Numbered from the stretch's first letter, positions 654-28,313 are shown. The stretch: DNA of 64,000 bases from Sphingobium sp. (GCA_020446425.1 JAGRES010000011.1:9484-73483), one strand, 5' to 3'. The notes: generated by a model from the sequence alone, not told the origin. Program-made: numbers and translations.

Positions 654-728
654 GGCCCCTTCGTCTAGCGGTCAGGACGCGGCCCTCTCACGGCTGAAAC
701 ACGGGTTCGATTCCCGTAGGGGTCACCA
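654..728 (+). tRNA. tRNA-Glu (anticodon CUC)
   Basis: Hand-folded cloverleaf: acceptor GGCCCCT/AGGGGTC, D stem GTCT/GGAC, anticodon stem CGGCC/GGCTG with loop CT-CTC-AC, T arm CGGGTTCGATTCCCG, discriminator A and an encoded CCA. Confidence 0.9.
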
Positions 729-5541: not shown

Positions 5542-5715
5542 ATGAAACCGAACCAGCCCTTGACCGAAAAGCTGAATGAAGCAGGCGGCACGCCTGAGCG
5601 TGGCTATGACGCATGGAAGCGCGCCAAGGTCGAAAAGGGTCTGGAGCAGTCAAAGAACCGGGATGCGATGATCCCGGTTTCGAGGATTTTGCGCGACTTC
5701 GGCCTTGAACGTTAA
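5542..5715 (+). CDS. type II antitoxin (stability-determinant type, partner of ParE/RelE toxin)
   Basis: 57 aa. GYDAWKRAKVEKGLEQSKNRDAMIPVSRIL resembles the YDxWFRAKV...IPH pattern of small antitoxins. Overlaps the toxin gene by 11 nt. Confidence 0.65.
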   Translation: MKPNQPLTEKLNEAGGTPERGYDAWKRAKVEKGLEQSKNRDAMIPVSRILRDFGLER

Positions 5716-5992
5716 TTTCACGCCACAAGCCAAGGATGATCTGGAAGCGATCCACGACTGGATTGCCGAAGATGATCCGCGTGCGGCCGATAATGTTGTC
5801 GCGCGGATTGCTCAGACGGCTATGATGTTCGGGCAGTTTCCGATGTTGGGCAGGGCCGGGATCGTCGAGGATACACGGGAGTTTTCCGTGGTCGGCTTGC
5901 CCTATCTCATTGTGTATCGGATCGCGTCAGAAACGGAAGTCGATGTGCTGACCGTGGTGCATACTAGAAGGAAATATCCGCCAGAGAGGTGA
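5705..5992 (+). CDS. parE: type II toxin, RelE/ParE family
   Basis: 95 aa. NFTPQAKDDLEAIHDWIAEDDPRAADNVVARI...VDVLTVVHTRRKYP is typical ParE. TTG start overlaps the antitoxin. Confidence 0.8.
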   Translation: MNVNFTPQAKDDLEAIHDWIAEDDPRAADNVVARIAQTAMMFGQFPMLGRAGIVEDTREFSVVGLPYLIVYRIASETEVDVLTVVHTRRKYPPER

Positions 5993-5993
5993 T

Positions 5994-6140
5994 GTGCTGT
6001 TGGTCGAGAAACTCGGTCGCAACGACCCATGCCTATGCGGTTCGGGGAAGAGATTTCAAGCGGTGCTGTATGCGCTTTGGCCGGTTTCGATGGGTCTGAG
6101 AGGGGGTGAATGGTGGCGGCGAAGAAATTTATCTACATAG
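5994..6140 (+). pseudogene. degenerate SEC-C metal-binding motif remnant
   Basis: The frame reads VLLVEKLGRNDPCLCGSGKRFQAVL. Removing one C after AGATTT would restore GRNDPCLCGSGKRFKRCC, the canonical SEC-C CxCGSGKKxKxCC motif. The ORF then runs into the AT-rich islet. Confidence 0.35.
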
Positions 6141-6166
6141 ATAAGAGAAAATCATTGTTAATTAAA

Positions 6167-6346
6167 TTAATATGGTCCGTTTAAAACCTTACTGTATATA
6201 AAAGACCCTGCTATAGTTAAAAAAAGTCCAACCAAACCTCCCCAAAAAAGATTTTTTCTTAGCTCTTTTATGGAGTTATAACGGTTTATTTCTTTTCCCC
6301 AACAAAATATATTCGTTGGGTAAAGAAAATCAACTAATGTTGTCAT
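6167..6346 (-). CDS. hypothetical small membrane protein (59 aa)
   Basis: Own translation MTTLVDFLYPTNIFCWGKEINRYNSIKELRKNLFWGGLVGLFLTIAGSFIYSKVLNGPY with a C-terminal TM helix. Lies 66 nt downstream of the 185-aa ORF on the same strand. No clear SD. Confidence 0.3.
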   Translation of the reverse strand: MTTLVDFLYPTNIFCWGKEINRYNSIKELRKNLFWGGLVGLFLTIAGSFIYSKVLNGPY

Positions 6347-6412
6347 CGCTATTGCTGCTATTATTAGTGTAAATACTACTATTATTGGAATATATTCTAC
6401 AAAATCTGGTCG

Positions 6413-6970
6413 TTACCCCATATGCTCGATAATATATTCTAATTTTTGATCTGTGTTCATGCTCTGTGTTTGTACTTTTGGTGGTCGGGATTGTGCTCTC
6501 TGCCAAGAAACCACTATTACTGAAATAAAAATAATCAATGTCATGATAGCTGGTAAGAAAAGACGATATTTTATTAAATTAGTTACCCAATAAAATTTCT
6601 GTATGCATATTTCGGAATTCAAGTAAGACTTTAAATCAGATGATAATAGTAAAGCTGTATCACGCTGACCGCATTCTATGGACATGCTTGTGTTGTAATC
6701 GGAAGAAAAAACAATTTCCACATTTGTATGATCGTCTTTCGCTTCGATCTCTATCTCCTTTATCCTGTCTATATTTGAATTCTCTTCTGAAATTACATCC
6801 TTCGCAGAATCATATGTTATGAGCGCATCGTCTGCTCGGTGCACATTATATATTACTTTAACTTTGTCGTTTGACTCTATTCTTTTAGTTATAATATCAT
6901 CAATTTTGAGTAAATGCTCTTCCAGAAGAAGAAATCCTCTTCCAAATTTACTTTTTACTCTGGCTTTCAT
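6413..6970 (-). CDS. hypothetical protein, soluble N-terminal domain plus C-terminal TM helix (185 aa)
   Basis: Track ORF. AT-rich codon usage. AGAGG SD about 7 nt upstream. TM segment LFLPAIMTLIIFISVIVVSW. No family recognised. Confidence 0.55.
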   Translation of the reverse strand: MKARVKSKFGRGFLLLEEHLLKIDDIITKRIESNDKVKVIYNVHRADDALITYDSAKDVISEENSNIDRIKEIEIEAKDDHTNVEIVFSSDYNTSMSIECGQRDTALLLSSDLKSYLNSEICIQKFYWVTNLIKYRLFLPAIMTLIIFISVIVVSWQRAQSRPPKVQTQSMNTDQKLEYIIEHMG

Positions 6971-7004
6971 TGATCTGCCTCTATTTATATCAAAATTAAA
7001 TTAC

Positions 7005-8057
7005 CTACTCCGCCGCGACACCCGCCTGCTTGAACATATCGTCGCCATCGTCTTCCGGTGCGGCGTCGTCGTTCGCCCTGATCTTCTTGCGCCGGTCGAA
7101 GCTGTCCCACACATCGTTCCAGTTGCCGCGTGTCGCGGCCTTGCTGTATTCGGTCGCGCGGGTCTCGAAGAAGTTGGCGTGCTCCACACCGTTCAAGAGC
7201 GGCGCGAGCCACGGCAGCGGGTGCTCGTCGATCATGTAGATCGGCTGGAAGCCGAGCTGGCCCAGGCGCCAGTCCGCGATATAGCGGATATATTTCTTGA
7301 TCTCCTTGGCCGTCATGCCCGGCACCGGCCCCATTTCGAAAGCGAGGTCGATGAACGCGTCTTCGAGGCGCACCGTCTTCTGGCAGCAGTCGATGATATC
7401 TTCCTTCACCGCCTTGGTCAGGCAGTCGCGCTCCTTGGTGAAGGCGTGGAACAGGCGGGTGATGCCCTCGCAGTGCAGGCTCTCGTCGCGCACGGACCAA
7501 CTCACAATTTGCCCCATGCCCTTCATCTTGTTGAAGCGCGGGAAGTTCATCAGCATCGCGAAGCTGGCGAAGAGCTGCATGCCCTCGGTAAAGCCGCCGA
7601 ACATGGCGAGCGTGCGGGCGATATCCTCGTCGCTGTCGACGCCGAAATTCTGCATATAATCATGCTTGTCGCGCATCTCCTGATATTCGAGGAACATGCT
7701 GTATTCGCTCTCGGGCATGCCGATGGTGTCGAGCAGGTGCGAATAAGCCGCGATGTGGATCGTCTCCATGTTGCTGAACGCCGTCAGCATCATCTTGACT
7801 TCCGTGGGCTTGAACACGCGGCCATATTTGTCGTGATAGCAGTCCTGCACCTCGACATCCGCCTGCGTGAAGAAGCGGAAGATTTGGGTGAGCAGGTTGC
7901 GCTCATGCTCGGAGAGCTTCTGCGCCCAGTCGCGGCAATCCTCGCCCAGCGGCACTTCCTCGGGCATCCAGTGCACCTGCTGCTGGCGCTTCCAATATTC
8001 ATAGGCCCAGGGATATTCGAAGGGCTTGTAGACTTTGCTGGCTTGCAGAAGGGGCAT
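7005..8057 (-). CDS. nrdB: class I ribonucleoside-diphosphate reductase, beta (R2) subunit
   Basis: 350 aa with the di-iron ligand motifs SNMETIHIAAYSH (ExxH) and VRDESLHCEG (ExxH). Sits directly downstream of the alpha subunit. Confidence 0.9.
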   Translation of the reverse strand: MPLLQASKVYKPFEYPWAYEYWKRQQQVHWMPEEVPLGEDCRDWAQKLSEHERNLLTQIFRFFTQADVEVQDCYHDKYGRVFKPTEVKMMLTAFSNMETIHIAAYSHLLDTIGMPESEYSMFLEYQEMRDKHDYMQNFGVDSDEDIARTLAMFGGFTEGMQLFASFAMLMNFPRFNKMKGMGQIVSWSVRDESLHCEGITRLFHAFTKERDCLTKAVKEDIIDCCQKTVRLEDAFIDLAFEMGPVPGMTAKEIKKYIRYIADWRLGQLGFQPIYMIDEHPLPWLAPLLNGVEHANFFETRATEYSKAATRGNWNDVWDSFDRRKKIRANDDAAPEDDGDDMFKQAGVAAE

Positions 8058-18624: not shown

Positions 18625-19262
18625 GTGTTAGCAACGGTATCGACGGTGGCCTATCTGGGGCTGGAGGCGCGCGCCGTCGAGGTGCAATGCCAGCTGGTGG
18701 CGGGGCTGCCCAATTTCATCGTCGTGGGTCTTGCCGACAAGGCGGTATCGGAAAGCAAGGAGCGGGTGCGCAATGCGCTTGCCGCTATTGGTCTTGCACT
18801 GCCGCCCAAGCGTATCACCGTCAACCTGTCGCCCGCCGACTTGCCGAAGGAAGGCTCGCATTACGACCTGCCGATCGCGCTCGCGGTGCTTGGCGCAATG
18901 GGCATGATCGACGCCGAAACACTGTCGCATTATGTGGTGGTGGGCGAACTGGGGCTGGATGGCCGTATTGCGCCCAGCCCCGGCGTGCTGCTCGCCGCAT
19001 TGCATGCCAGCGGGCAGGACAAGGGGTTGATCTGCCCTGCGGTGCAAGGAGCGGAAGCGGCCTGGGCGGGTAATGTGGAAGTGGCCGCCGCGCCCAATCT
19101 TACAGGCCTGCTCAACCACCTGAAAGGCAAAGGCGTGCTCCAGCCGCCGCAACCCGGTGAGGTCGAGGCGCCGCTGCAAGGCCCCGACCTGCGGCAGGTA
19201 AAAGGGCAGGAGGTCGCCAAGCGCGCATTGGAAATCGCGGCGGCGGGCGGGCACAATATGCT
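18625..19262 (+). pseudogene. comM: comM/yifB 5' fragment (N-terminal Lon-like domain), truncated by island insertion
   Basis: The translation reads ...VSTVAYLGLEARAVEVQCQL...SHYDLPIALAVLGA...QVKGQEVAKRALEIAAAGGHNML. The frame then leaves native sequence and stops after two foreign codons at 19272. Confidence 0.9.
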
Positions 19263-19283
19263 CACATTATAACCTATTAAATT
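19255..19283. repeat. attL: shared core AATATGCT plus island-side P' arm
   Basis: Core at 19255-19262 is identical to 27435-27442. The arm ATTATAACCTATTAAATT (19266-19283) is the inverted copy (16/18) of 27420-27437. Confidence 0.8.
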
Positions 19284-19294
19284 TGAGTAATGAA

Positions 19295-19390
19295 ATGAAG
19301 ATCGGACTTTGGTTAGAAGCAGTTTTGATCGGTATCGTAACTGTTATCGCTATCGTTCAGGCGGCTATCAGTGTTCTCAATGTTTTGTGA
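19295..19390 (+). CDS. possible 31-aa hydrophobic peptide
   Basis: Own translation MKIGLWLEAVLIGIVTVIAIVQAAISVLNVL. No clear SD, and it could be spurious. Confidence 0.2.
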   Translation: MKIGLWLEAVLIGIVTVIAIVQAAISVLNVL

Positions 19391-19470
19391 GTGCTGGTTA
19401 AGCCCGCATATGCTTCCATATTTTGGAATGCACCGCTTTGAGGTCGGTCCTTAATCTAAGAGATTCTCGG

Positions 19471-19800
19471 TCAAATGCGCTGAGCGACAAGATATAGCGC
19501 CACCAGCACAACGAAAGTTATGGACCCAATAGCTAACGCTCCCTCCACCCAAGCCCACACAATACCGAAAGGGGTTCGTCTCCAAGCTTCTTCCGGTTTC
19601 TTGGTCTTAGTCCGGGTTTCGGACAGGTACTGCCTCACATCATGGAACAAATAGTAAAAGACCGCTGCAATGAACAGGGCGGAAAATCCGATTGATATCG
19701 GCGATTCTTTCGGGACGAGCGTCATGATTGAGAGCGAAATCCCAATAACTATGCACCAAGCTATGTATATGGCGGCCTCGTGGTTTGAGGATTTTTTCAT
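19471..19800 (-). CDS. hypothetical membrane protein (109 aa, about 3 TM)
   Basis: Track ORF. The ATG overlaps the stop of the upstream 51-aa ORF (ATGA). Hydrophobic segments AAIYIAWCIVIGISLSIM, GFSALFIAAVFYYLF and ALAIGSITFVVLVALYLV. Confidence 0.6.
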   Translation of the reverse strand: MKKSSNHEAAIYIAWCIVIGISLSIMTLVPKESPISIGFSALFIAAVFYYLFHDVRQYLSETRTKTKKPEEAWRRTPFGIVWAWVEGALAIGSITFVVLVALYLVAQRI

Positions 19801-19952
19801 CTGCCTCCCTCGTCACAGACAGGTATAGCCATCACCAAATTGGAGGAGCCATAATGGCTTCCCGGCCTCCATAATATTAGAATGGAGTTGACGATCACGG
19901 CACCAATGCAACCGGCAACAAAATTGAACCCTGCAGCGTCATGCTTATTCAT
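19797..19952 (-). CDS. hypothetical small membrane protein (51 aa)
   Basis: Own translation MNKHDAAGFNFVAGCIGAVIVNSILILWRPGSHYGSSNLVMAIPVCDEGGR. Its start overlaps the upstream stop (ATGAATAA) and its stop overlaps the downstream start (ATGA), so it bridges the two flanking ORFs exactly. Confidence 0.45.
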   Translation of the reverse strand: MNKHDAAGFNFVAGCIGAVIVNSILILWRPGSHYGSSNLVMAIPVCDEGGR

Positions 19953-20271
19953 TTAAGGCGCTTTCTCGTGTTCCCTCATCACCATAGGTTGCTGACCGCA
20001 TAGCAATGAGTTCCGAAGTGTCAGCAAGGCGCTCCATATGTTCGGAGATTTTTAGGAGGCTGTCGTGGGCAGAGATCAGGATCGCCGTCCCAAATAGCGC
20101 TGAGACTATTACGCTGAGGAAGATGATGACGATGGTTACGGAATAATCGCCTATGAAGCTGGCGCCCGGTTCGGCGGTAAAAGACCAGAAGAGGAAGATG
20201 GTGCAGACAATTAATATCAGCCCGCACGCAATTATAATTCCGTATTTCACTAAATTAACGATGAAAACCAT
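19945..20271 (-). CDS. hypothetical membrane protein (108 aa, 2 TM plus soluble tail)
   Basis: Track ORF trimmed to the internal ATG 20271 (MVFIVNLVKYGIIIACGLILIVCTIFLF...). The upstream part of the track ORF overlaps the divergent promoter region. Confidence 0.55.
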   Translation of the reverse strand: MVFIVNLVKYGIIIACGLILIVCTIFLFWSFTAEPGASFIGDYSVTIVIIFLSVIVSALFGTAILISAHDSLLKISEHMERLADTSELIAMRSATYGDEGTRESALNE

Positions 20272-20315
20272 ATGACGACCCCCTGAACAGTCAAGCGAAC
20301 TGGCGAATTGAGAGT

Positions 20316-20332
20316 GTCCCCAAAATGGGGAC
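20316..20332. promoter_or_regulatory. 17-bp perfect palindrome, candidate XRE operator
   Basis: GTCCCCAAAATGGGGAC lies in the 111-bp gap between the divergent membrane-protein operon and the XRE gene. Confidence 0.4.
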
Positions 20333-20382
20333 GATTTATGTTGGGTATATGTGCATGTGCTGGAAATCAAGCGGAACCAGCG

Positions 20383-20634
20383 ATGCAAAGAGGTTGGGTC
20401 GTATCGACCGAATATCGTTCGATCATTGAGAAGGTTAAGGCCGTTCGCCTGTCGCTGGATGTCTCTCAAAGGGAGCTTGCTCGCCGACTTGGAAAGCCAC
20501 CATCCTTCGTCAACAAGATCGAATTGCTGGAACGTCGAATGGACATTCTGGAGTTTGTCCAGATTGCTGAAGCGTTAGGTATGAGTGCTGAGCAACTTAT
20601 AGCCGCTGTGGCGACTTCGCTAAAAAAAGAGTGA
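20383..20634 (+). CDS. XRE-family helix-turn-helix transcriptional regulator (83 aa)
   Basis: IIEKVKAVRLSLDVSQRELARRLGKPPSFVNKIELLERRMDILEFVQIAEALG is a Cro/CI-type HTH. Start taken at ATG 20383. Confidence 0.75.
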   Translation: MQRGWVVSTEYRSIIEKVKAVRLSLDVSQRELARRLGKPPSFVNKIELLERRMDILEFVQIAEALGMSAEQLIAAVATSLKKE

Positions 20635-20666
20635 TGTATGAAGGGGGAGGGGGCAAACCATCCGCC

Positions 20667-21011
20667 CTAATCCGGAAGTGATATCGAAGCCCCGTTGAAT
20701 GATCGCTTGGGGGAAGACCTTGTTTTTGATCGATCCTGCCTAGCCTGCTTCGTTCCCTCAGGCAGAGGAAAATCACATGCGTGCAGGAACATCAGATATT
20801 CTACGCCTAGAGATACGGTGCCAGGAATTTCCCTTTTTCCTGCCTCCCAATCACCGATAGTTTGATGTCCCCAAGCCGCCATGCGTAATTTGCTAGCCAT
20901 TTCCTGCCTGCTAAGCCCAAGCGCTTCTCTGCATTCGATAAACTCAGCGGGCTTCATGGGAGTATAATCCGACCGGGTTGCACTCTGCGAATCCTCACTA
21001 TTCATTATCAC
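20667..21011 (-). CDS. helix-turn-helix domain protein (114 aa)
   Basis: MKPAEFIECREALGLSRQEMASKLRMAAWGHQTIGDWEAGKREIP is an XRE-like HTH. Convergent with the 83-aa XRE gene. Confidence 0.65.
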   Translation of the reverse strand: MIMNSEDSQSATRSDYTPMKPAEFIECREALGLSRQEMASKLRMAAWGHQTIGDWEAGKREIPGTVSLGVEYLMFLHACDFPLPEGTKQARQDRSKTRSSPKRSFNGASISLPD

Positions 21012-21203
21012 TCCATCAATTTCACAATGTCAGGTCGCAAATCGCTATTGACCGTCACATGACGAAAGCGGACCAACCACAATTGAAGCCATTATTGTCC
21101 GATCTCAGGCTGTTTAAACCCCGTTACGTCCAAAGCGGAGCTAATTGCCATCCAACAGCGCTAAAAACTGCTTATTTTCAATGCGATCATTCCAAATCGG
21201 TGT

Positions 21204-21737
21204 TTGTTGCAACCAGGGGCGCGTGTGGAAAGCATAGAAAGGCAAAAGCTGCAGCTGTCAGAGCTCCAAATTTCCATCCTAAAGCTCGTCGCCGAATCCC
21301 GCACAAGCAAGCAGATTGCAGCCGAACTCGACATTTCTAATCACACTGTCGATACCTATATATGGTCCGCAATGCAGACTTTAGGGGTAAACAGCCGATC
21401 CGAAGCAGCAAAAATCGTCGTAAATCCGCCAAATATGAATTCGGCCCAATTCATATATGAACCGGAAAGGCTTGATGATCCCGGCCAGGTTATGCCTCAT
21501 ACGACACATCCGGCGCAGCTGGTCGTCTCACAGAATGAAGTTGCTGATCAACGACACAAACGTGATTGGCGGACAATTTTACAGACGTTCAAGTTGCCTC
21601 CGGTTGGAGGGCAAAAGCATGACTTAAGCACACTCAGTCGGTTAGCTATAGTAGGGCGAATAGCATTTATCTCTGCTCTACTATTAGCAGCTCTCGGAGC
21701 GGTCATTTCCGGCGCCCTTCACCTGCTCGGCAGGTAA
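21204..21737 (+). CDS. LuxR/GerE-type HTH protein with C-terminal TM anchor
   Basis: LSELQISILKLVAESRTSKQIAAELDISNHTVDTYIWSAMQTLGVNSRSEAAKIV is a GerE HTH. C-terminal IAFISALLLAALGAVISGAL. The start is uncertain (TTG 21204 or GTG 21225). Confidence 0.65.
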   Translation: MLQPGARVESIERQKLQLSELQISILKLVAESRTSKQIAAELDISNHTVDTYIWSAMQTLGVNSRSEAAKIVVNPPNMNSAQFIYEPERLDDPGQVMPHTTHPAQLVVSQNEVADQRHKRDWRTILQTFKLPPVGGQKHDLSTLSRLAIVGRIAFISALLLAALGAVISGALHLLGR

Positions 21738-21786
21738 TCAACAGACAGGTGAAATGAAGTGCGCATTTTTGCGCAGAGGAGAAGCT

Positions 21787-22143
21787 ATGCACTTATCAGA
21801 AGCGGGTGGCCGGACAGTTGCGGCTGATCTTGAAACAATGTTCCATGGCCTCGATAATTCGTTGCTGGATGCAACACGGTTGTCGATGTCCGTATTGGAA
21901 ACGAAAGCGGGGACAACTTTACCCCCTGCCACATTCCAGAGAGTGTTGGACTCAATGATGTCTGGACTGTCCAAAATGGTCGATGGGCGAAAGTCTATGG
22001 TGGCGATGCACCGTCATCTCGTCACAATCAAGGGCGAGAGCAATTTGGCCGAGGTCGATTATGGATGCTTTTTCTCGACTGGGTCAGCCGCAGATGGTCC
22101 AGGGGACAATAAGGCATCCACGAGTACGTCGGCGATGGCCTGA
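21787..22143 (+). CDS. hypothetical protein (118 aa)
   Basis: Track ORF 21754-22143 trimmed to ATG 21787, which is preceded by AGGAGA. No family recognised. Confidence 0.5.
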   Translation: MHLSEAGGRTVAADLETMFHGLDNSLLDATRLSMSVLETKAGTTLPPATFQRVLDSMMSGLSKMVDGRKSMVAMHRHLVTIKGESNLAEVDYGCFFSTGSAADGPGDNKASTSTSAMA

Positions 22144-22173
22144 AAACTTGTCTTGACTGGTTTTGGGTAAAAC

Positions 22174-22656
22174 ATGACCAGTCAAGACATGCTCGCCCTC
22201 TATCTTACGTTTGGCGCTCTTTGGTTCCTGACTTGCCTCTATGCATGGGCATATGGAGGATGGGAGGGGCGATGGCTCTCAACCATGTTGGTTTTGGCAG
22301 CTGTGATTTCGCCCTTCGCTCAATTCCATCACAGCAAGAACTGGATAGAGCCCCAATATGGGGTTTTTGCTATCGATCTTGCCCTGCTTATCGGCATGAC
22401 GACCGTAGCATACCGAACGGATCGATACTGGCCATTATGGATGCTGGCTTTCCATCTTTTGTCTGTTCTGACGCATGTCGTGGTCATGCTGGATCAGCAG
22501 GTTTTTGCTCGAGCCTATCAGTCTGCTGCAGCGTTCTGGAGCATACCGATTCAATTGATAATGGCACTGGGAGTTATGTTGGATCGCCGAGCGAAAAATA
22601 CGTTTGGAGAAAGTGATGGGAGAGAGTTTTCCCAATCTGAACAATCTATTGATTGA
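22174..22656 (+). CDS. hypothetical polytopic membrane protein (160 aa)
   Basis: Track ORF with four or five hydrophobic segments. 30 nt after the preceding ORF. Confidence 0.55.
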   Translation: MTSQDMLALYLTFGALWFLTCLYAWAYGGWEGRWLSTMLVLAAVISPFAQFHHSKNWIEPQYGVFAIDLALLIGMTTVAYRTDRYWPLWMLAFHLLSVLTHVVVMLDQQVFARAYQSAAAFWSIPIQLIMALGVMLDRRAKNTFGESDGREFSQSEQSID

Positions 22657-23071
22657 TGCTCGCTCGGCCATTGACGTCTTGCTGAGCAATTTATCGGAAC
22701 AGAAGCCCGGCCAACTTCACAACCTTTTGGCCGAACCAAGCGATGTACGAGCAATAGGAAAGCATTATCTCTCGGTTTTGAAATCCCGTGACCGTCTTCT
22801 AGGCCGACAGCTGAGCGACAGCGCATGGGTGATACTCATCGACCTATATGTGCATGAGCAGAATCGGAATATATCTGTTTCGAGTGCCTGTGTTGCATCC
22901 GGAAGGCCGCCAACCACAGCGTTGCGACAAATTCGGGTATTATGCGAGTTTGGTCTGATTGACCGTCAGCATGATCCCCGTGACGGGAGGATTGTCTATC
23001 TAAAGCTTACCGAGACTGCTCGTAAAGCCGTAGAAGAGCACCTTATAGAGCTGACAAGCGCTTCACAATGA
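22616..23071 (+). CDS. MarR-like winged-helix protein
   Basis: ISVSSACVASGRPPTTALRQIRVLCEFGLIDRQHDPRDGRIVYLKLTETARKAVEEHL is a wHTH with the DxR...V.L.LT wing. Overlaps the upstream ORF by 41 nt. Confidence 0.6.
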   Translation: MGESFPNLNNLLIDARSAIDVLLSNLSEQKPGQLHNLLAEPSDVRAIGKHYLSVLKSRDRLLGRQLSDSAWVILIDLYVHEQNRNISVSSACVASGRPPTTALRQIRVLCEFGLIDRQHDPRDGRIVYLKLTETARKAVEEHLIELTSASQ

Positions 23072-23156
23072 ATGATGAAGTAAACATAGCTTGCCTACAC
23101 ACAAAAGCAGAGGCGGTCAGCAAACTATATGTGCAATGATATGCAAGGTACGATGG

Positions 23157-23744
23157 CTATACATCAACCACCTTCCTCATGGCCTCAGTGTCGATTTCGA
23201 TATAGCGCTGGGTCATAGCTAGTGATCTGTGCCGAGCCAGAGCCTGCACATCTCTGAGGCTTCCTCCAAACCGACCGATATTTTTTGCCGCTCGAGTGAT
23301 AAATGTCCGTCGACCGCTATGACTGGAACAGCCAGCCAACCCAAGGCCAGAATACCACTGCCGGAACATATTGATGATCACTTGGCTGGAAGTCTGTTTC
23401 GATCTGGACGTTCGGATGATCCGATTCTCGAACGAAGACGGGTTTGAGCTGATTTGGAGCGCCCTTAAAGCGTTTTGGAGTTCGTTAGCCATTGGGATAA
23501 TACCGCCGCTTGTCCCCTTTGTGGCGCTATCGGCGAGAGCGATGCAATCTCGCAAATTTCCTTCGGCGTCAGTGACCATATCCCATGTGATGGAAGCGAT
23601 CTCCTTCGCTCTGAGTCCTGCTCTTACAGAAAGCAGGAAAATGACGATGTTGCGTTCTGGCCAACGAGAGCATTCCAGATAGCGGATGACGGCCTTGATC
23701 TGAGCGGGTGAAAGAATTTTGGCTTGCTTGCCGAGCATCAACAC
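23157..23744 (-). CDS. minimal tyrosine recombinase (catalytic domain only, 195 aa)
   Basis: Catalytic residues in order: RAGLR, HSGRRTF (HxxR), LARHRS and QRYIE (nucleophile Tyr). No N-terminal SAM-like core-binding domain is visible. Confidence 0.8.
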   Translation of the reverse strand: MLMLGKQAKILSPAQIKAVIRYLECSRWPERNIVIFLLSVRAGLRAKEIASITWDMVTDAEGNLRDCIALADSATKGTSGGIIPMANELQNALRALQISSNPSSFENRIIRTSRSKQTSSQVIINMFRQWYSGLGLAGCSSHSGRRTFITRAAKNIGRFGGSLRDVQALARHRSLAMTQRYIEIDTEAMRKVVDV

Positions 23745-23974
23745 CTTCCATTATAATTACACAAACTATTGTAATATCATAATAAAATTCGCTCAAGGCA
23801 TTAAAGCGGGTTCTGTGAAAACCGAGTGAAACAGCGGGTTTGGCCGGTTTCATGAGAAAAATATAATTTCATAATGACGAGCCGCCAGCAAGCCGGGCAA
23901 GGCAAAGCTAGCTGCTGCAACAACCACCCCTTTTTCTGTCACCCACTCACCAGCAATGGAGGCGTGTGCCAGCG

Positions 23975-23998
23975 ATAAGCCGGAGCTCATCGGCTTAT
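23975..23998. repeat. perfect 8-bp-stem inverted repeat
   Basis: ATAAGCCG-gagctcat-CGGCTTAT, in the gap between the tyrosine recombinase and the Rep-like ORF. Confidence 0.6.
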
Positions 23999-24125
23999 GA
24001 GTCGACAAGCGAAAAATCCGTAATTATCCTTTATTTACAGATGCTTGGTACATCTCGAAAAATGTTGAAGTTATTTCGGGGAATCGCCACTGTTGCCTTA
24101 TTCCACCCACAGGCAAGGAGAACGG

Positions 24126-24665
24126 ATGGCAGCGAAGACAGCGGATTACACCAATTGGATCGATCCAAATCTTAATCCCAACATATATTGCGTCGGCACG
24201 ACCAAGCAGGAGTATATGAGCTGGCGGAACGGCTCCCCCATACGGATGAAGCTCACCGAGGACACTCTTCATGAGCGAGCCGGTCAATTTATCGCTCGCT
24301 TATCCAAAGCCATTTACGGCAAGACGGCCTATCGCCGGTTCAAGCTAACAATACCGAACGCCCTTACATTGGAGGGTAACGGAAACGGCAGATCATGCTT
24401 CTGGCTGAGTCATGAAAAAGACCCCAGGAGCCTGAAAGAGAGGGGGAAGGTGCGTTACCATTTCAACATCCTTCTCAGGAAGCCGGAGTGGATGCCTTTC
24501 GACCAGCTTGAAGAGATCATAAAAAATATCTGGCGGTCCTGTGATTGGACCATGCCGGACATAAATATAGAGGAGCGAACTGGCGATTGCGTCGGTTACT
24601 CTCTCAAGGAAGGACCTGAGACTTTGGTCACCAAAACGCTTAGTTTTGGTCGCTCAATGCAGTGA
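24126..24665 (+). CDS. hypothetical protein with HUH-Rep-like motif order (179 aa)
   Basis: AAGGAG SD 5 nt before ATG 24126. FKLT (aa 72-75), YHFNILL (111-117) and GYSLK (157-161) have the spacing of rolling-circle Rep motifs I/II/III, but the second His is Asn. Confidence 0.5.
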   Translation: MAAKTADYTNWIDPNLNPNIYCVGTTKQEYMSWRNGSPIRMKLTEDTLHERAGQFIARLSKAIYGKTAYRRFKLTIPNALTLEGNGNGRSCFWLSHEKDPRSLKERGKVRYHFNILLRKPEWMPFDQLEEIIKNIWRSCDWTMPDINIEERTGDCVGYSLKEGPETLVTKTLSFGRSMQ

Positions 24666-24716
24666 TAACCGATGGGCGTCATTATATGCCCCAAAATTTC
24701 ACACTGGACCCGACAT

Positions 24717-24767
24717 AATTCTAGCTCAGCTTTGGTTCATATGCGATCCAAGGCTTAGGCTAGAATT
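24717..24767. repeat. long imperfect hairpin downstream of the Rep-like ORF
   Basis: AATTCTAGC-tc-AGCTTTGG ... CCAAGGCT-tag-GCTAGAATT: a 9-bp perfect outer stem plus an 8-bp inner stem (1 mismatch) with a 12-nt loop, ttcatatgcgat. Confidence 0.6.
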
Positions 24768-24867
24768 GTAGCTGGAATATACTTCAGTAATCTGAATTAA
24801 AATGCATTCATACCTACACCATAAGGTGTAATATAAACCGAAATCTAAATGACGAAAGAATCTGAAA

Positions 24868-25686
24868 ATGGCACGCAAGCCTCGAAAGCCGACAGGAGAA
24901 ATTACCTCTCGTCCATTGGTTCTTCGTCCTGGTCAAGAGGCTCGACTAGGCTCCACTAAGTTATTTAAGTTGCCTGAAGTGAAGGCGCAGGCAGAGTTTA
25001 TAGTTATGCAGAAGACAATATCCTGTATGTCAAGCATGCCACTTTTGCCTAAAACCCCTATAAGTTTCACAAAGTTCCCTAAAGAAGAAGGCCCTGATTT
25101 CAATATAGCATTTTCAGATGGCTCCAATGGATATGCAGAAATTACTGAAATTGCCCCTCTCATGGGACCATATCAGGAGGCTCCTCGCTTCATTAATGTG
25201 GGGCAATATATACAGCATGTAAAAAAACTCGTTATGAGAAAGTGTAGAATTTATAATTCTAGAAAACTAAGTCCAATTATATTAATTCTATATGTTTCTC
25301 ATGATACTTTTATTCCTACACCAGAAATTGCAGAGGCGATTTCTTATAATATTTCTCATCTTAACTCGAATCCATTTTTATCAATTACATTAACTTTGTT
25401 TGGATACGATGGAAATCCTCTAGTTGTACAATTACTACCATCTCCGATTCATTTATATTCAAAACAATATAATGCAATCGAACATAAATCCATGGGCTTA
25501 ACATCAACCGCAGATATGGAAGTTGTTAAGGGAGGTATGAATAAAGATGGTTATGTTGATGCCGTCGTCCGTTTTAAATTTCCGGAAGGTACTCCTTCTG
25601 AGGTGGTGCAGCAGTATTTAAATGGAGAAAATATACCGGGGCCAATGCATTTCGATCTGGGCGATAATGTAGTGATTAAAAAATGA
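24868..25686 (+). CDS. hypothetical protein (272 aa), very AT-rich orphan
   Basis: Track ORF. The GPDFNIAF...YAEITEI segment is faintly PD-(D/E)xK-like but lacks the Lys. No family recognised. Confidence 0.55.
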   Translation: MARKPRKPTGEITSRPLVLRPGQEARLGSTKLFKLPEVKAQAEFIVMQKTISCMSSMPLLPKTPISFTKFPKEEGPDFNIAFSDGSNGYAEITEIAPLMGPYQEAPRFINVGQYIQHVKKLVMRKCRIYNSRKLSPIILILYVSHDTFIPTPEIAEAISYNISHLNSNPFLSITLTLFGYDGNPLVVQLLPSPIHLYSKQYNAIEHKSMGLTSTADMEVVKGGMNKDGYVDAVVRFKFPEGTPSEVVQQYLNGENIPGPMHFDLGDNVVIKK

Positions 25687-25689
25687 GTA

Positions 25690-27390
25690 TTATGCTCTTT
25701 TGATAGATTCGCGTTGCATAAGAACATTCATCTTGGAATTCATTTCAAAATGTGTTCGCTCACCGGTGAATGCATCAAATTCTGTGAAACTATAGGTCTT
25801 GTAAAGCACCATTATCTCAATGAACCGATTGGCATCTCCCAAATCAGTAAGAGTTAATCCTTCGAACATCTGATCAGGAATATCATCGCCCGGAGTGGGA
25901 AAGCTCCGTCCAATTTCAATGCGAGACACTAGCCTTCCGAGTTCAGAGGAAAATTTTCGTCGGAGAGCAGATCGCTCACTATCGGTGATGATGGGAGAGT
26001 TAAGGTTCTCGACGAGCGCTTTGTAATCAAGTCCTGATGACAGACTAAGATGCGCTAATTCCTCATCGGCAGTACGTTTGTCTCGTTGTATTTTTTCTAA
26101 GTCCAATTCCAGCCGTTTAAGTTTTGAGGAAAGCGCTTCCGAATATCCGCTCGCAGCGATAGCATCTGCTACATTCTCTAACTGCTTCTGAAGCTTCGCT
26201 TCCTTTGCATCCAGATCGACTAGTCTGAAACGTAATTCGGCGGTTTTTGCCATCCATGCAGGGCTATTGATAATGGCATCAAAGTTGATTGTAGTGAGCA
26301 ATCGAAACAGATGCGCTTCGACTATGTCGTATCGGAAGGCAGGACTCGAACAATCTTGTGTCAAAACTGCTCTGGAGCATCGGAGGTACCTACCCCCTTT
26401 AGGTGGCGGGCCTTTGTCAATGAACCGCATACCAGACCTGCAAGATTTGCATCTCAATAAGCCTGTAAAAAGGTTTGTGAAATTTCTTCCCTTACGGCCT
26501 TTTCCATTCACTTTGCGTCTAGCGATAGCGTTCTGAGCATCGGCAAATACCACCTCATCAATGATTGCTGGATAATAGCCGCAAATTGGTGGTCCATCAG
26601 GAGATCGGGGTTTATGAGATAGCCCTTTAGCTAGACGGTGAGGCTGATACTCACCCAAAACTGCCCGATTGGACAGAATTTTTTTAATATAGGATTCTTG
26701 CCAATGCCCACTGCGGCTCCAAGCGGGTATTCGCTGTTCATTCAAGTGTTTTGCAATGGAAAATGACCCCCAACCGCTTCCGCTAAGATCGAACATGTCT
26801 CTGATAATCTCAGCGCGCTCTTCAATGATTTCAATGGTTTGACCATCTTCTGAAAAGCGAAGCCAGCTTGGAATACGTTGCTTGGTAATATGACCAGCTC
26901 TTGCTGCTGTTCGCTTGTTCTCCCAGACTGCTCCTAACCTCATCGACTTGGTACGAGATTCTTCATGCGCTCGCATCAAAACCATGGCGGCCATAATCAT
27001 CGCCATGGGGTTTTTAGAAACAGTTTCTGCCGAATAAATTTGCTCATCAACTAGCGTTACGAGCACGATGCCGTATCCGACGATCTTATTTAGAAGAGAG
27101 ATGGCTTCTATAAGATTGGTGCGGGTTATCCGGTCCAATGACTCCACGATCAAGTAGCTACCTTTAGCTATCCTGCCTGCTTCGGCGAGATCAAGAAAGT
27201 TCGCCAATTTACCCATTTCTGCGTTTTCGCCTGCAAAAGCTGAAACACCACAATCATGCATGATGTCCATCAATTCTAGGCCATGTTTTTTGGCATAGTC
27301 CTCGGAAGCCTTCAGCTGGCGCCGAATGGAATCCCCCTTCATCTGTTCAAGCGTGGACATGCGAATATACGAATAAGCGTGCGGCATCAT
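25690..27390 (-). CDS. large serine recombinase (integrase of the island)
   Basis: MPHAYSYIRMSTLEQMKGDSIRRQ (resolvase catalytic Ser), a recombinase domain, Zn-ribbon CKSCRS...RYLRCS and a C-terminal coiled coil. The track ORF starts at 27411; the likely start is ATG 27390 or 27387. Confidence 0.9.
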   Translation of the reverse strand: MMPHAYSYIRMSTLEQMKGDSIRRQLKASEDYAKKHGLELMDIMHDCGVSAFAGENAEMGKLANFLDLAEAGRIAKGSYLIVESLDRITRTNLIEAISLLNKIVGYGIVLVTLVDEQIYSAETVSKNPMAMIMAAMVLMRAHEESRTKSMRLGAVWENKRTAARAGHITKQRIPSWLRFSEDGQTIEIIEERAEIIRDMFDLSGSGWGSFSIAKHLNEQRIPAWSRSGHWQESYIKKILSNRAVLGEYQPHRLAKGLSHKPRSPDGPPICGYYPAIIDEVVFADAQNAIARRKVNGKGRKGRNFTNLFTGLLRCKSCRSGMRFIDKGPPPKGGRYLRCSRAVLTQDCSSPAFRYDIVEAHLFRLLTTINFDAIINSPAWMAKTAELRFRLVDLDAKEAKLQKQLENVADAIAASGYSEALSSKLKRLELDLEKIQRDKRTADEELAHLSLSSGLDYKALVENLNSPIITDSERSALRRKFSSELGRLVSRIEIGRSFPTPGDDIPDQMFEGLTLTDLGDANRFIEIMVLYKTYSFTEFDAFTGERTHFEMNSKMNVLMQRESIKRA

Positions 27391-27419
27391 GCCACTGTAA
27401 ACACCTTCCATATAAATTC

Positions 27420-27442
27420 AATTTATTAGGATATAATATGCT
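27420..27442. repeat. attR: island-side P arm plus shared core AATATGCT
   Basis: AATTTATTAGGATATAAT (27420-27437) is inverted relative to 19266-19283. The core is at 27435-27442. Confidence 0.8.
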
Positions 27443-28313
27443 GATGTCAGGGCCGCCGGGCGCGGGCAAATCGCTGATGGCGAGTTGCCTGCCGGGGATA
27501 TTGCCGGACCTGACGCCCGCTGAGGCGCTGGAAGTTTCGATGGTGGCAAGCGTGGCTGGCACATTGGAGGGCGGGCGCATGACACGCGCGCGGCCTTTCC
27601 GCAGCCCGCATCACAGCGCGTCGATGGCTGCGCTGGTTGGCGGCGGTTTGCGGGTGAAACCGGGTGAGGTCAGCCTCGCGCATCTGGGTGTGCTGTTTCT
27701 CGATGAACTGCCGGAGTTTCAGCGCGCCGTATTGGATTCACTGCGCCAGCCATTGGAGACGGGCGAAGTCGCCGTCGCACGCGCCAACAGTCATGTTACC
27801 TTTCCCGCGCAGGTGCAACTGATTGCGGCAATGAACCCGTGCCGGTGCGGTCATCTGGGCGACGCGTCGCTGGCCTGCTCGCGCGCGCCGCGCTGCGCCG
27901 CCGATTATCAGGCCAAGCTGTCCGGTCCGCTGCTCGATCGCATCGACCTGCATGTCGAGGTCGGTGCCGTGAGCGCCAGCGACCTCAGCCTGCCGCCTCC
28001 CGCCGAGGGATCGCAGCAGGTTGCCGCACGCGTGGCGCAGGCGCGCGATATTCAGACGCGCCGTTATGCCCCCTATGATCTGCGTACCAATGCAGAGGCG
28101 GACGGCCTGTTGCTGGAAACCCTGTGCAAGCCGGAGGAGGCAGGACAGACATTGCTGGCCGATGCTGCCGCCACATTGAAGCTGACGGCGCGCGGTTACA
28201 CACGCGTTTTGCGCGTCGCGCGTACTATTGCCGATCTGGCAGGGGCGCAGACCATAGGGCGGCTTCATATCGCGGAGGCATTGAGCTATCGTCGGCGCGC
28301 TCCGGCTGGCTGA
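27438..28313 (+). pseudogene. comM: comM/yifB 3' fragment (AAA+ Mg-chelatase-like ATPase and C-terminal domain)
   Basis: MLMSGPPGAGKS (Walker A), VLFLDELPEF (Walker B) and the ChlI-like region. In frame with 18625-19262 once the island is removed. Confidence 0.9.

What the first reader, a model, noticed from the sequence alone, without database searches (positions are those of the whole stretch)
18625..28313. comM/yifB is split at its Walker A codons by an 8.2-kb island whose attP can be rebuilt as a near-perfect palindrome
Seen in sequence:
- The ORF at 18625-19272 encodes the ComM N-terminal domain up to ...AAGGHNML, then stops after two foreign codons.
- The ORF at 27438-28313 begins MLMSGPPGAGKS and carries the rest of the AAA+ protein.
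- Joining 19262 to 27443 gives ...GGHNMLMSGPPGAGKS... in frame, 1509 nt in total.
- Both junctions share AATATGCT (19255-19262 and 27435-27442).
- The island-side flanks are inverted copies of each other. AATTTATTAGGATATAAT (27420-27437) compares with the reverse complement of 19266-19283, AATTTAATAGGTTATAAT, at 16/18 positions.
- An excised circle would therefore carry AATTTATTAGGATATAAT-ATGCTCAC-ATTATAACCTATTAAATT, with CT at the centre as the likely crossover dinucleotide.
- A 573-aa large serine recombinase begins a few tens of bp from attR, and GC content is visibly lower across the island.

Established knowledge: serine integrases use short, imperfectly palindromic att sites with a central dinucleotide. 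ComM is a helicase needed for efficient natural transformation and is a recurrent target for islands.

Inference: this is an intact, probably still excisable element that acts as a reversible switch on comM.
Basis: partly seen in the sequence, partly recalled or inferred. Interest (0 to 1): 0.78.

Follow-up and report, generated by a model that had tools for sequence, protein, structure and literature searches.

The report
Serine-integrase island splitting comM gene
An 8.2-kb mobile element carrying its own large serine integrase has inserted precisely into the DNA-recombination helicase gene comM of a Sphingobium-like bacterium. This is a clean, well-preserved example of what is already known to be the commonest target of such integrases.

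Summary
comM is split at 19262|27443, and joining the halves gives one 502-aa ORF. That ORF is 97-98% identical to intact ComM of close relatives and has the same length. The empty-site DNA is colinear with those relatives without gaps.

The island (19263-27442, GC ~0.47 against ~0.62 outside) carries an intact 573-aa large serine recombinase 30 bp from attR. The rebuilt attP is a 19/24 palindrome centred on CT, and attB has its dyad on the same CT.

In 83 loci encoding relatives of this recombinase, 48 have the recombinase gene abutting a comM fragment broken at this same position. In all 13 islands with both ends (window included), attL and attR share the dinucleotide (CT, TT or AT). The attP arms co-vary between elements.

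This is already known in kind. Durrant et al. 2022 report that Mg-chelatase/comM homologues are hit by 12.4% of predicted site-specific serine integrases. Croucher et al. 2016 describe comM-targeting elements.

"Still excisable, reversible switch" is untested. No directionality factor was identified, and no circular junction was found in metagenome or viral contigs.

One new detail emerged. The island core also encodes a rare protein with a rolling-circle Rep-like (HUH-type) fold, plus a small tyrosine recombinase.

The parts
18625..19262 (+). comM/yifB 5' fragment (ChlI N-terminal domain plus the first 26 positions of the Mg_chelatase AAA+ domain). The ORF as it stands runs on to a foreign stop at 19272.
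   Evidence: Pfam PF13541 E 2.4e-38 and PF01078 positions 1-26.
19237..19286 (+). attL: B arm 19237-19260, crossover CT 19261-19262, P' arm 19263-19286 (CACATTATAACCTATTAAATTTGA).
   Evidence: The family alignment shows the same junction and a conserved P' arm.
19263..27442 (.). Integrated island of 8,180 bp with GC about 0.47 (host about 0.62).
   Evidence: composition; the empty-site reconstruction is colinear with L086 and L085. L084, an independent metagenome contig, is 99.97% identical to 20755-27391.
19471..19800 (-). 109-aa predicted membrane protein (cargo, function unknown).
   Evidence: Weak sub-threshold TauE hit. No PHROG or PADLOC hit.
19945..20469 (-). 174-aa ORF with a hydrophobic C-terminal half (cargo, function unknown). 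The true start is probably internal.
   Evidence: No family hit.
20308..20634 (+). Xre-type HTH_3 regulator, conserved in related comM islands.
   Evidence: PF01381 E 2.2e-9. Homologues in L003 (57%), L046, L028, L051 and L074.
20667..21011 (-). Second HTH_3 regulator, divergent from the LuxR-type gene.
   Evidence: PF01381 E 1.7e-5. PHROG transcriptional regulators.
21204..21737 (+). LuxR/GerE-type HTH protein with a C-terminal membrane anchor.
   Evidence: PF00196 E 3.5e-13.
21754..22143 (+). 129-aa ORF of unknown function.
   Evidence: no hits. Also called as a gene on L084.
22174..22656 (+). 160-aa multi-pass membrane protein of unknown function.
   Evidence: no hits. Also called as a gene on L084.
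22604..23071 (+). MarR-like winged-helix regulator.
   Evidence: PF13463 E 1.7e-5 and PF01047 E 7.6e-5.
23157..23744 (-). 195-aa tyrosine recombinase with a catalytic domain only. R, K, HxxR, H and Y are all present. It is a conserved accessory gene of the alphaproteobacterial comM islands.
   Evidence: PF00589 E 1.1e-15. phrog_216 E 1e-35. Homologues at 53-66% identity in L003, L004, L005 and L009, and weaker ones elsewhere.
24126..24665 (+). 179-aa protein with a rolling-circle Rep-like (HUH-type) fold; the ORF is open from 24093. It is a conserved core gene next to the integrase in related islands.
   Evidence: Rare family: 134 representatives in 1.84e9 proteins. 11 of 38 members give sub-threshold hits to PF23343 REP_ORF2-G2P. 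AF2 pLDDT 91.7. Foldseek BFVD: 17 hits at E<=1e-3, including a microvirus replication initiator; parvovirus NS1/non-structural proteins appear lower in the list at E 3e-3 to 6e-3. The profile hits island ORFs in L003, L007, L008, L016 and L024.
24868..25686 (+). 272-aa orphan ORF in the lowest-GC patch (0.34-0.38), wedged between the integrase and the Rep-like gene. It is probably later-acquired cargo.
   Evidence: No Pfam, PHROG, PADLOC or NCBIfam hit. Absent from the L003 and L004 islands.
25690..27411 (-). Large serine recombinase (integrase), 573 aa. The start may be Met8 at 27390.
   Evidence: PF00239, PF07508 and PF13408. Nucleophile S19 and other invariant residues conserved across 32 relatives. 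617 relatives at E<=1e-10.
27417..27466 (+). attR: P arm 27417-27440 (TTCAATTTATTAGGATATAATATG), crossover CT 27441-27442, B' arm 27443-27466 covering the Walker A codons.
27443..28313 (+). comM 3' fragment (AAA+ Mg_chelatase domain from Walker A onward, plus Mg_chelatase_C). An in-frame ATG at 27438 is kept from the shared junction sequence.
   Evidence: PF01078 E 2.7e-80 (positions 25-205) and PF13335 E 1.9e-29.

Best explanation
A small integrative element (19263-27442) has been inserted into comM/yifB by its own large serine recombinase.

**Shown in sequence.** The enzyme recombined a quasi-palindromic attP (AATTTATTAGGATATAATATG-CT-CACATTATAACCTATTAAATT) with an attB made of highly conserved comM codons (...GGCGGGCACAATATG-CT-GATGTCAGGGCCGCC...). 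The exchange occurred at the asymmetric CT dinucleotide, 7 nt upstream of the Walker A glycine codons. This recombinase belongs to a large clade, spread over Alpha-, Beta- and Gammaproteobacteria and beyond, that is specialised on this one site. Because the site is built from near-invariant AAA+ codons, it is available in almost any host.

**Inferred.**
- The insertion separates the N-terminal domain from the ATPase. It should therefore abolish ComM branch-migration activity and lower recombination of incoming DNA (natural transformation, or gene-transfer-agent DNA in alphaproteobacteria). As argued for other comM-targeting elements, this protects the island from being deleted by recombination with an empty-site allele.
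- The conserved core is the integrase, a protein with a rolling-circle Rep-like (HUH-type) fold, a small site-specific recombinase and an Xre regulator. This suggests the excised circle can replicate or be processed as a rolling-circle replicon or mobilisable element, with the small recombinase resolving multimers.
- Excision would need an unidentified directionality factor, and would restore comM exactly.
For: - **Anatomy:**
- **Empty site:** the rejoined ComM is 98% and 97% identical to P0121 and P0122 and has the same 502-aa length. The reconstructed empty site aligns over 2609 nt at 93.5% with 0 gaps to L086, and over 4830 nt at 86% to L085, with the same flanking genes.
- **Enzyme:** three LSR domains and conserved catalytic residues.
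- **Family census:** in 48 of 83 loci with relatives at 35-51% identity, the recombinase gene abuts a comM fragment broken at the same codon.
- **Crossover:** attL and attR carry the same dinucleotide in 13/13 fully delimited islands, while it varies between islands (CT in 10, TT in 1, AT in 2). The attP dyad axis falls on that dinucleotide in 11/13.
- **Arm co-variation:** the arms co-vary, for example GGCTA/TAGCC, GTAGCAC/GTGCTAC and CCATAT/ATATGG.
- **Half-site consensus:** the P arms share TTTAAT at -19..-14 and cAyAA at -9..-5. Both B arms share GGCGG at -15..-11.
- **Other islands:** all 12 other delimited islands are small (4.3-10.9 kb) and lower in GC than their flanks.
- **Gene integrity:** in-silico excision restores an open comM frame in 9 of 9 other evaluable loci.
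- **Rep-like core gene:**
- **Literature:** PMC10083194, PMC4774983, PMC11472951, PMC12378983.
Against: - No excised form or free attP was found, and no directionality factor is identified. Present-day mobility is therefore unproven.
- Loss of ComM function is inferred from domain architecture, not measured. The 3' fragment keeps an in-frame ATG and could in principle be expressed.
- Natural transformation is not documented for this host.
- The Rep-like assignment is not firm. It rests on sub-threshold Pfam hits (best E 5e-6, all seen below the 27.8-bit cut-off), Foldseek matches to predicted viral structures (TM about 0.45-0.5), and no significant PDB hit. The window protein has RYH rather than a canonical HUH motif.
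- No conjugation, mobilisation or packaging genes were recognised, so the route of horizontal transfer is unknown.
Confidence: 0.85

Rival explanations
1. Reversible genetic switch. The element excises on cue, restores comM when recombination of incoming DNA is useful, and re-integrates afterwards. This would resemble the comK prophage of Listeria or the skin and SPbeta elements of Bacillus.
For: - Excision would rebuild a perfect comM.
- Neither comM half shows any frameshift or stop, here or in 9 of 9 other evaluable islands.
- The integrase and both att sites are intact.
Against: - No directionality factor was recognised.
- No attP junction was found in metagenome or viral contigs, although the island itself is present in one metagenome at 99.97% identity.
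- Undecayed halves are equally explained by recent insertion and fast turnover.
- Some family members do show decay or secondary insertions: a frameshift in L034, a truncation in L067 and a second insertion in L003.
- Published interpretation favours selfish inactivation (PMC4774983).
Confidence: 0.15
2. Fixed, no longer mobile insertion. The island integrated once and is now simply a stable, inert disruption of a dispensable gene.
For: - No circular form was found.
- No transfer genes were recognised.
- Extra low-GC cargo sits between the integrase and the Rep-like gene, compared with the 4.3-kb L003 island.
Against: - All recombinase genes are intact.
- The att sites are perfect.
- The comM halves are undecayed.
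- The closest relatives, at 93.5% nucleotide identity, have the empty site, so the insertion is recent on that scale.
Confidence: 0.3
3. Insertion by a different machinery, with the serine recombinase as a passenger. Candidates are a Tn7-like AbaR-type transposon or the island's own tyrosine recombinase.
For: - comM is also the target of Tn7-like AbaR islands in Acinetobacter (PMC11472951).
- The island does carry a tyrosine recombinase.
Against: - No TniA/B/C-like genes are present, and there is no 5-bp target duplication.
- The only repeat at the ends is the junction sequence around the crossover dinucleotide, flanked by inverted arms typical of serine-integrase attP.
- The serine recombinase gene sits 30 bp from the junction in 35 related loci.
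- The tyrosine recombinase is a catalytic domain only, is internal to the island, and is replaced by a small serine resolvase in the gammaproteobacterial islands.
Confidence: 0.02

Closest known systems
Large serine recombinase elements that target Mg-chelatase/ATP-dependent-protease (comM/yifB) homologues (Durrant et al. 2022, PMC10083194)
   Same: Same enzyme class and domain architecture, and the same target gene family. That paper reports this gene as the most enriched target, hit by 12.4% of predicted site-specific LSRs, with competence genes enriched overall.
   Different: This particular recombinase is only 51% identical or less to anything else found. I could not check whether it, or its exact att sites, are in that database. 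The core gene set described here (Rep-like protein plus small recombinase) is not discussed in the text I read.
comM-targeting mobile elements of Aggregatibacter, Acinetobacter, Mannheimia, Francisella and Pseudomonas syringae (Jorth & Whiteley 2012, PMC3484387; Croucher et al. 2016, PMC4774983)
   Same: A site-specific element with a conserved integrase inserts at an orthologous, imperfectly conserved position in comM. This is interpreted as a way for the element to block its own removal by transformation.
   Different: The hosts are gammaproteobacterial pathogens. The class of the integrase (CF65_00446) is not stated in the text I could read, so homology to this recombinase is untested. The Aggregatibacter insertions carry an rhs gene and other cargo, unlike this island.
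Listeria A118/phi10403S prophage in comK (serine integrase; 'active lysogeny')
   Same: A serine integrase inserts a mobile element inside a competence gene, and precise excision restores the gene (PMC3556126 listed; comK prophages are mentioned).
   Different: That is a full prophage with demonstrated regulated excision. Here the island is 8 kb, has no phage structural genes, and shows no evidence of excision.
AbaR/AbGRI resistance islands in Acinetobacter baumannii comM
   Same: They interrupt the Mg-chelatase domain of comM and lower transformation (PMC11472951; PMC11441513 listed).
   Different: They are Tn7-like transposons (TniABC) with a different insertion mechanism and carry resistance cargo. 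None of this is present here.
Integrative elements with rolling-circle Rep proteins (actinomycete AICEs such as pSAM2; Firmicute IMEs with Rep-related relaxases). From my own knowledge, not looked up here.
   Same: A site-specific integrase is combined with a small HUH-type Rep-like protein. This suggests a replicative or mobilisable circular intermediate.
   Different: The Rep-like family here is rare and unannotated, and its similarity to known Reps is weak. No FtsK-like transfer protein, coupling protein or oriT was recognised.

Membership tests
Large serine recombinase (serine integrase) integrative element | N-terminal resolvase-type catalytic domain with the serine nucleophile | tested here: met
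   PF00239 E 3.9e-18 over residues 12-169. S19 and R31, together with D93, R94 and R97, are invariant in 32 relatives.
Large serine recombinase (serine integrase) integrative element | C-terminal recombinase domain plus zinc-ribbon domain | tested here: met
   PF07508 E 5.7e-13 (residues 197-299) and PF13408 E 8.9e-10 (residues 314-369). A heptad-rich segment follows, but the coiled coil was not formally tested.
Large serine recombinase (serine integrase) integrative element | Short, imperfectly palindromic attP and attB with a shared central 2-bp crossover. attL and attR are hybrids. | tested here: met
   attP 19/25 and attB 14/25, both centred on the same CT. The same holds in 12 other islands, with matching attL/attR dinucleotides in 13/13 (window included) and co-varying arms.
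Large serine recombinase (serine integrase) integrative element | Catalyses attP x attB integration; excision requires a directionality factor | not testable with these tools
   No RDF homologue is recognisable, since RDFs share no common family. No excision junction was found in the assemblies searched.
comM/Mg-chelatase-targeting LSR clade | Integrase gene lies at an island end that abuts a comM fragment broken at the conserved site just 5' of Walker A | tested here: met
   True for the window and for 48 of 83 loci of relatives. Of these, 35 have the same geometry as the window.
Regulatory-switch ('active lysogeny'-type) element | Precise excision restores the interrupted gene | tested here: met
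   In silico only: a 1509-nt ORF, 98% identical to an intact relative.
Regulatory-switch ('active lysogeny'-type) element | Excision actually occurs and is regulated by a host cue, followed by re-integration or maintenance | not testable with these tools
   0 hits for attP junctions. This is only weak negative evidence, because rare circles are not expected to assemble.
AbaR / Tn7-like comM islands | TniA/TniB/TniC transposition module, terminal inverted repeats with TnsB-type sites, and a 5-bp target duplication | tested here: not met
   No such domains appear in any island ORF. The junctions show a serine-integrase-type att structure.
HUH-superfamily rolling-circle Rep / relaxase (for ORF 24126-24665) | HUH metal-binding motif and catalytic Tyr (YxxK) on a Rep-type alpha/beta fold | tested here: inconclusive
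   Y158 and K161 are invariant, and H112 is the only invariant His. The window has RYH, whereas the L007 homologue has HYH. PF23343 hits are sub-threshold in 11 of 38 members. Foldseek BFVD gives E 6e-5 to 1e-3 and TM 0.4-0.5 to a microvirus replication initiator, with parvovirus NS1 at E 3e-3. PDB hits are not significant.
Prophage | Virion structural, packaging and lysis genes | tested here: not met
   The only PHROG hits are an integrase and transcriptional regulators. The island is only 8.2 kb.

The most novel reading that the evidence does not exclude
The small (4-11 kb) comM islands may form an undescribed family of integrative rolling-circle replicons or mobilisable elements. Their conserved core would be: a comM-specific serine integrase, a rare protein with a rolling-circle Rep-like (HUH-type) fold, a small resolvase-type recombinase (tyrosine in alphaproteobacteria, serine in gammaproteobacteria) and an Xre regulator. 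In sphingomonads their excision and re-integration might toggle ComM-dependent uptake of gene-transfer-agent or transforming DNA.
Probability: 0.2. Interest if true: 0.6.

Novelty: new member of a known kind. Interest (0 to 1): 0.35.

Why it matters
comM is the branch-migration helicase that lets incoming DNA recombine. Mobile elements that knock it out are central to the idea that transformation and mobile elements are in conflict.

This locus is a textbook-clean case in a Sphingobium-like alphaproteobacterium, a group outside the named-species examples in the papers read here. It comes with fully defined attL, attR, attP and attB.

The family comparison made here has two practical uses. It gives a ready-made set of natural attP/attB pairs and crossover variants (CT, TT, AT) for one integrase clade. 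It also points to a conserved Rep-like partner gene that could explain how such tiny islands persist and spread.

It does not overturn anything. The targeting of comM by serine integrases is already published.

Tried and rejected
- **Excised circle.** I searched for the exact 24-mer across the attP junction, and for a degenerate family-level attP pattern. Both gave 0 hits in metagenome contigs and the degenerate pattern gave 0 in viral contigs. This is uninformative rather than negative.
- **Promoter rebuilt on the circle.** I asked whether circularisation creates a promoter for the integrase. A consensus scan gave equally mediocre sigma-70 matches (9/12) upstream of the gene in both the integrated and the circular configuration. 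I dropped the idea.
- **Invertible segments.** An inverted- and direct-repeat scan of the island, looking for a target for the small tyrosine recombinase, returned only short, chance-level pairs. A 19-nt direct repeat (23740-23758 / 27400-27418) does sit at the 5' ends of both recombinase genes. I noted it but cannot explain it.
- **Cargo function.** Pfam, PHROGs, PADLOC and NCBIfam gave nothing for the 272-, 174-, 160-, 129- and 109-aa ORFs. There is no recognisable defence system.
- **First structure model.** The first AF2 model of the Rep-like protein used 5 sequences and reached only pLDDT 60. Its PDB search was meaningless. The 38-sequence model was good but still has no significant PDB neighbour. 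A PDB sequence-profile search also found nothing.
- **Vehicle of the integrase.** tblastn of the integrase against phage and plasmid collections found only distant hits at 35% identity or less for matches covering at least 80% of the query (39.5% over one partial match). The top 'plasmid' hits are chromids or mislabelled chromosomes. No free vehicle was identified.
- **Failed look-up.** P0022 (Rhizorhabdus) had no record.
- **Noisy literature search.** The first search with word-start matching was swamped by 'common' and 'Commun'.

Full report

Yes. The + strand ORF 18625-19272 encodes a ComM N-terminus ending ...AAGGHNML, followed by Thr-Leu-stop from foreign sequence. ORF 27438-28313 starts MLMSGPPGAGKS.

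Joining 19262 to 27443 gives 1509 nt with a single terminal stop. Pfam maps the two pieces to consecutive parts of one protein:
- ChlI plus Mg_chelatase positions 1-26
- Mg_chelatase positions 25-205 plus Mg_chelatase_C

AATATGCT occurs at both junctions, and the island-side flanks are inverted copies at 16/18. A scan of every possible symmetry centre puts the best dyad of the rebuilt attP (19/25) on CT 27441-27442. Independently, the best dyad of the rebuilt attB (14/25) falls on the same CT.

GC falls from 0.60-0.67 to about 0.47 inside the island, with a 0.34 trough at 25000-25400.

ORF 25690-27411 (-) is a complete large serine recombinase with Resolvase, Recombinase and Zn_ribbon_recom domains. 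The nucleophile Ser19 and other catalytic-domain residues are invariant across 32 relatives.

One correction of detail. The crossover lies in the Leu213 codon, 7 nt before the first Walker A glycine codon. The Walker A codons form the right half-site of attB.

**2. Empty site in relatives**

The rejoined ComM is 98% and 97% identical, over 100% of its length and at the same 502 aa, to two intact proteins from metagenomes. It is 82-87% identical to Sphingobium ComM/YifB proteins, so the host is a Sphingobium-like sphingomonad.

The reconstructed empty-site DNA aligns without a single gap to L086 (93.5% over 2609 nt), and over 4830 nt at 86% to L085. The same genes lie on both sides: AHSA1 upstream, and DUF805, bactofilin and M23 peptidase downstream. 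Those relatives carry attB variants GGACATAATATGCTGATGTCGGGT and GGGCATAACATGCTTATGTCGGGG.

An independent metagenome contig (L084, JGI 3300010350) is 99.97% identical to island positions 20755-27391. The island interior is therefore not an assembly artefact.

**3. The recombinase clade is specialised on this site**

The recombinase has hundreds of relatives. The nearest non-self relative is 51% identical, from a Sphingobium MAG.

I fetched 80 genome loci of relatives at 35-50% identity, plus three loci found by protein look-up. I then searched them with the two ComM halves. The 83 loci sort as follows.

| Arrangement | Loci |
|---|---|
| Recombinase abuts a comM fragment broken at exactly this codon | 48 |
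| Of those 48: same geometry as the window (5' end of the gene tens of bp, up to ~125 bp, from the C-terminal fragment, divergent) | 35 |
| Of those 48: 5' end next to the N-terminal fragment (opposite island orientation) | 7 |
| Of those 48: 3' end of the gene at the junction | 6 |
| Recombinase abuts comM at a second site near codon 30 | 5 |
| comM elsewhere in the locus | 8 |
| No comM in the locus | 22 |

Hosts span Alpha-, Beta- and Gammaproteobacteria, Nitrospinota, Desulfobacterota and Bacillota.

**4. att sites across the family**

Extracting junctions in register shows a conserved island-side arm, consensus ..TTTAAT(-19..-14)...cAyAAtATg. It appears on both sides of the element as an inverted repeat.

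Thirteen islands, including the window, have both ends available. In these:
- attL and attR carry the same central dinucleotide in 13/13, while it differs between islands (CT in 10, TT in 1, AT in 2).
- The best dyad axis of the rebuilt attP falls on that dinucleotide in 11/13.
- The variable inner part of the arms co-varies: GGCTA/TAGCC in L007, CAGCTA/TAGCTG in L024, GTAGCAC/GTGCTAC in L078, CCATAT/ATATGG in L003.

The B and B' half-sites both carry GGCGG at -15..-11. This symmetry is supplied by the AAGG and GPPG codons. The B arm shares CACAA with the P arms.

From my own knowledge, this layout is what the serine-integrase att-site model predicts. A proximal motif is shared by attP and attB, and a distal motif is displaced outward in attP. 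I did not test that model here.

**5. What the island carries**

Besides the integrase, the island encodes the following:
- two Xre-type HTH proteins
- a LuxR/GerE-type protein
- a MarR-like protein
- several small membrane proteins
- a 272-aa orphan in the lowest-GC patch
- a 195-aa tyrosine recombinase consisting of the catalytic domain only, with all catalytic residues present
- a 179-aa protein (24126-24665)

PHROGs, PADLOC and NCBIfam add nothing for the cargo. There are no phage structural genes, no recognisable defence system, and no conjugation or mobilisation genes.

Comparison with the other islands shows which genes are core:
- The small tyrosine recombinase recurs at 53-66% identity in L003, L004, L005 and L009.
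- The gammaproteobacterial islands carry a small serine resolvase instead.
- The 179-aa protein's family recurs next to the integrase in L003 and L004. By profile search it also appears in L007, L008, L016 and L024 (E 6e-59 to 3e-10).

The 12 other fully delimited islands are 4.3-10.9 kb, and all are lower in GC than their flanks. The smallest (L003, 4.3 kb) consists of the integrase, the 179-aa homologue, the tyrosine recombinase, the Xre gene and one further 231-aa ORF.

**6. The 179-aa core protein**

It belongs to a rare family, with 134 representatives among 1.84 billion cluster representatives. Invariant residues are E83, H112, P120, W141, Y158 and K161.

Eleven of 38 members give sub-threshold hits to PF23343, Replication-associated protein ORF2/G2P, with best E 5e-6.

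With the 38-sequence alignment, AlphaFold2 gives pLDDT 91.7. Foldseek against predicted viral structures returns 17 hits at E<=1e-3 with probability 0.99-1.0 and TM 0.4-0.5. Most are unnamed in the UniProt tables at hand. Among those 17, the only named hit is a microvirus replication initiator. Parvovirus NS1/non-structural proteins appear lower in the list, at E 3e-3 to 6e-3.

The PDB search has no significant hit. HUH transposases appear only at E about 0.14.

The L007 homologue has a canonical H-Y-H plus YxxK, whereas the window protein has R-Y-H plus YSLK.

I read this as a probable, unproven HUH-type rolling-circle Rep or relaxase-like nuclease. Together with a resolvase-type small recombinase, it suggests that the excised circle has a replicative or mobilisable life.

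**7. How it most likely works**

Shown:
- integration by the serine recombinase at CT within comM
- a clade-wide specialisation on this site

Inferred:
- Loss of ComM helicase function. ComM is a hexameric branch-migration helicase needed for efficient recombination of heterologous incoming DNA (10.1101/147660 and PMC11612176, listed). It is also reported to be important for integration of DNA acquired via gene transfer agents in Rhodobacter (PMC12378983).
- Following Croucher et al., this loss protects the island against deletion by recombination.

Excision would restore comM exactly, but would require an unidentified directionality factor.

In 9 of 9 other evaluable islands, as here, in-silico excision restores an open frame of normal length. 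This fits either rapid turnover or reversibility. L034 (frameshift), L067 (truncation) and L003 (a second insertion further into comM) show that decay and pile-ups also occur.

**8. Comparison with what is known, and novelty**

- Durrant et al. 2022 report that Mg-chelatase/ATP-dependent-protease homologues are the most enriched target of serine integrases. They are hit by 12.4% of predicted site-specific enzymes, with competence genes enriched overall.
- Jorth & Whiteley 2012 and Croucher et al. 2016 describe site-specific elements inserting at an orthologous comM position in several gammaproteobacterial pathogens.
- Reviews list comM as a recurrent target.
- AbaR islands hit comM by a different, Tn7-like mechanism, which is excluded here.

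The finding is therefore a new, very clean member of a known kind. The 'reversible switch' reading remains a hypothesis.

The modestly new element is the conserved Rep-like gene plus small recombinase in these mini-islands. I did not find this described in the papers read.

**9. Verdict**

- Observation: confirmed.
- Interpretation: partly supported.
- Novelty: new member of a known kind.
- Interest: 0.35.
- Confidence: about 0.85 that this is a serine-integrase-borne island integrated at CT in comM; about 0.15 for a genuine regulatory switch; about 0.2 for the broader 'integrative rolling-circle replicon family' reading.

Noticed in passing
L011, L029, L043 and L077 (recombinase start about 45-50 bp from comM codon ~30); L025 (comM codons 5-35 abut the recombinase). 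L012 and L071 are similar.: A subset of the same recombinase clade leaves the Walker A site intact. It sits instead at a second site near codon 30 of comM, so there are two distinct att sites in one gene for one clade.
   Followed up: partly
L003 7886-9917: In this metagenome contig the comM C-terminal fragment stops after 133 residues. It is followed by another Recombinase + Zn_ribbon gene, and by a cluster with HxsD and radical-SAM genes and a small resolvase. This looks like a second island piled into the same comM further downstream.
   Followed up: no
L020, L023, L040, L041, L050, L063, L065: In these loci the island lies in the opposite orientation relative to comM, with the integrase next to the N-terminal fragment. 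Because attP is nearly palindromic, flipping only the central dinucleotide would reverse polarity. Two of these loci have the self-complementary AT dinucleotide.
   Followed up: partly
window 23740-23758 and 27400-27418: A 19-nt direct repeat (AACACCTTCCATTATAATT / AACACCTTCCATATAAATT, 84% identical) lies at the 5' ends of both the tyrosine and the serine recombinase genes. It may be a shared operator or translation-start region.
   Followed up: no
window 27432-27446: The P arm places a perfect TATAAT immediately before the retained in-frame ATG (27438) and ATG (27444) of the comM 3' fragment. A truncated AAA+ ComM, possibly translated from a leaderless transcript, could therefore be made from the island end. 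This is pure speculation from sequence.
   Followed up: no
window 24868-25686: A 272-aa orphan ORF with GC 0.34-0.38 is much lower in GC than the rest of the island. It is wedged between the integrase and the Rep-like gene, which are adjacent in L003 and L004. It has no hit in four HMM libraries.
   Followed up: partly
window 5705-6970: A second low-GC patch (GC 0.35 over 6001-7000) holds a 185-aa orphan ORF (6413-6970, -) with a C-terminal hydrophobic segment. It lies just downstream of a 95-aa ORF (5705-5992) that, read by eye, looks like a ParE/RelE-type toxin, and next to what looks like a ribonucleotide-reductase beta-subunit gene (7005-8057, -). Neither gene was scanned against any library.
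   Followed up: no
window 654-728: tRNA-Glu(CTC) is the only tRNA in the window.
   Followed up: no
L006, L013, L014, L017, L018, L021 and others (22 loci): Relatives of the recombinase at 35-48% identity have no comM within 10 kb. This part of the clade must use other targets, which I did not identify.
   Followed up: no
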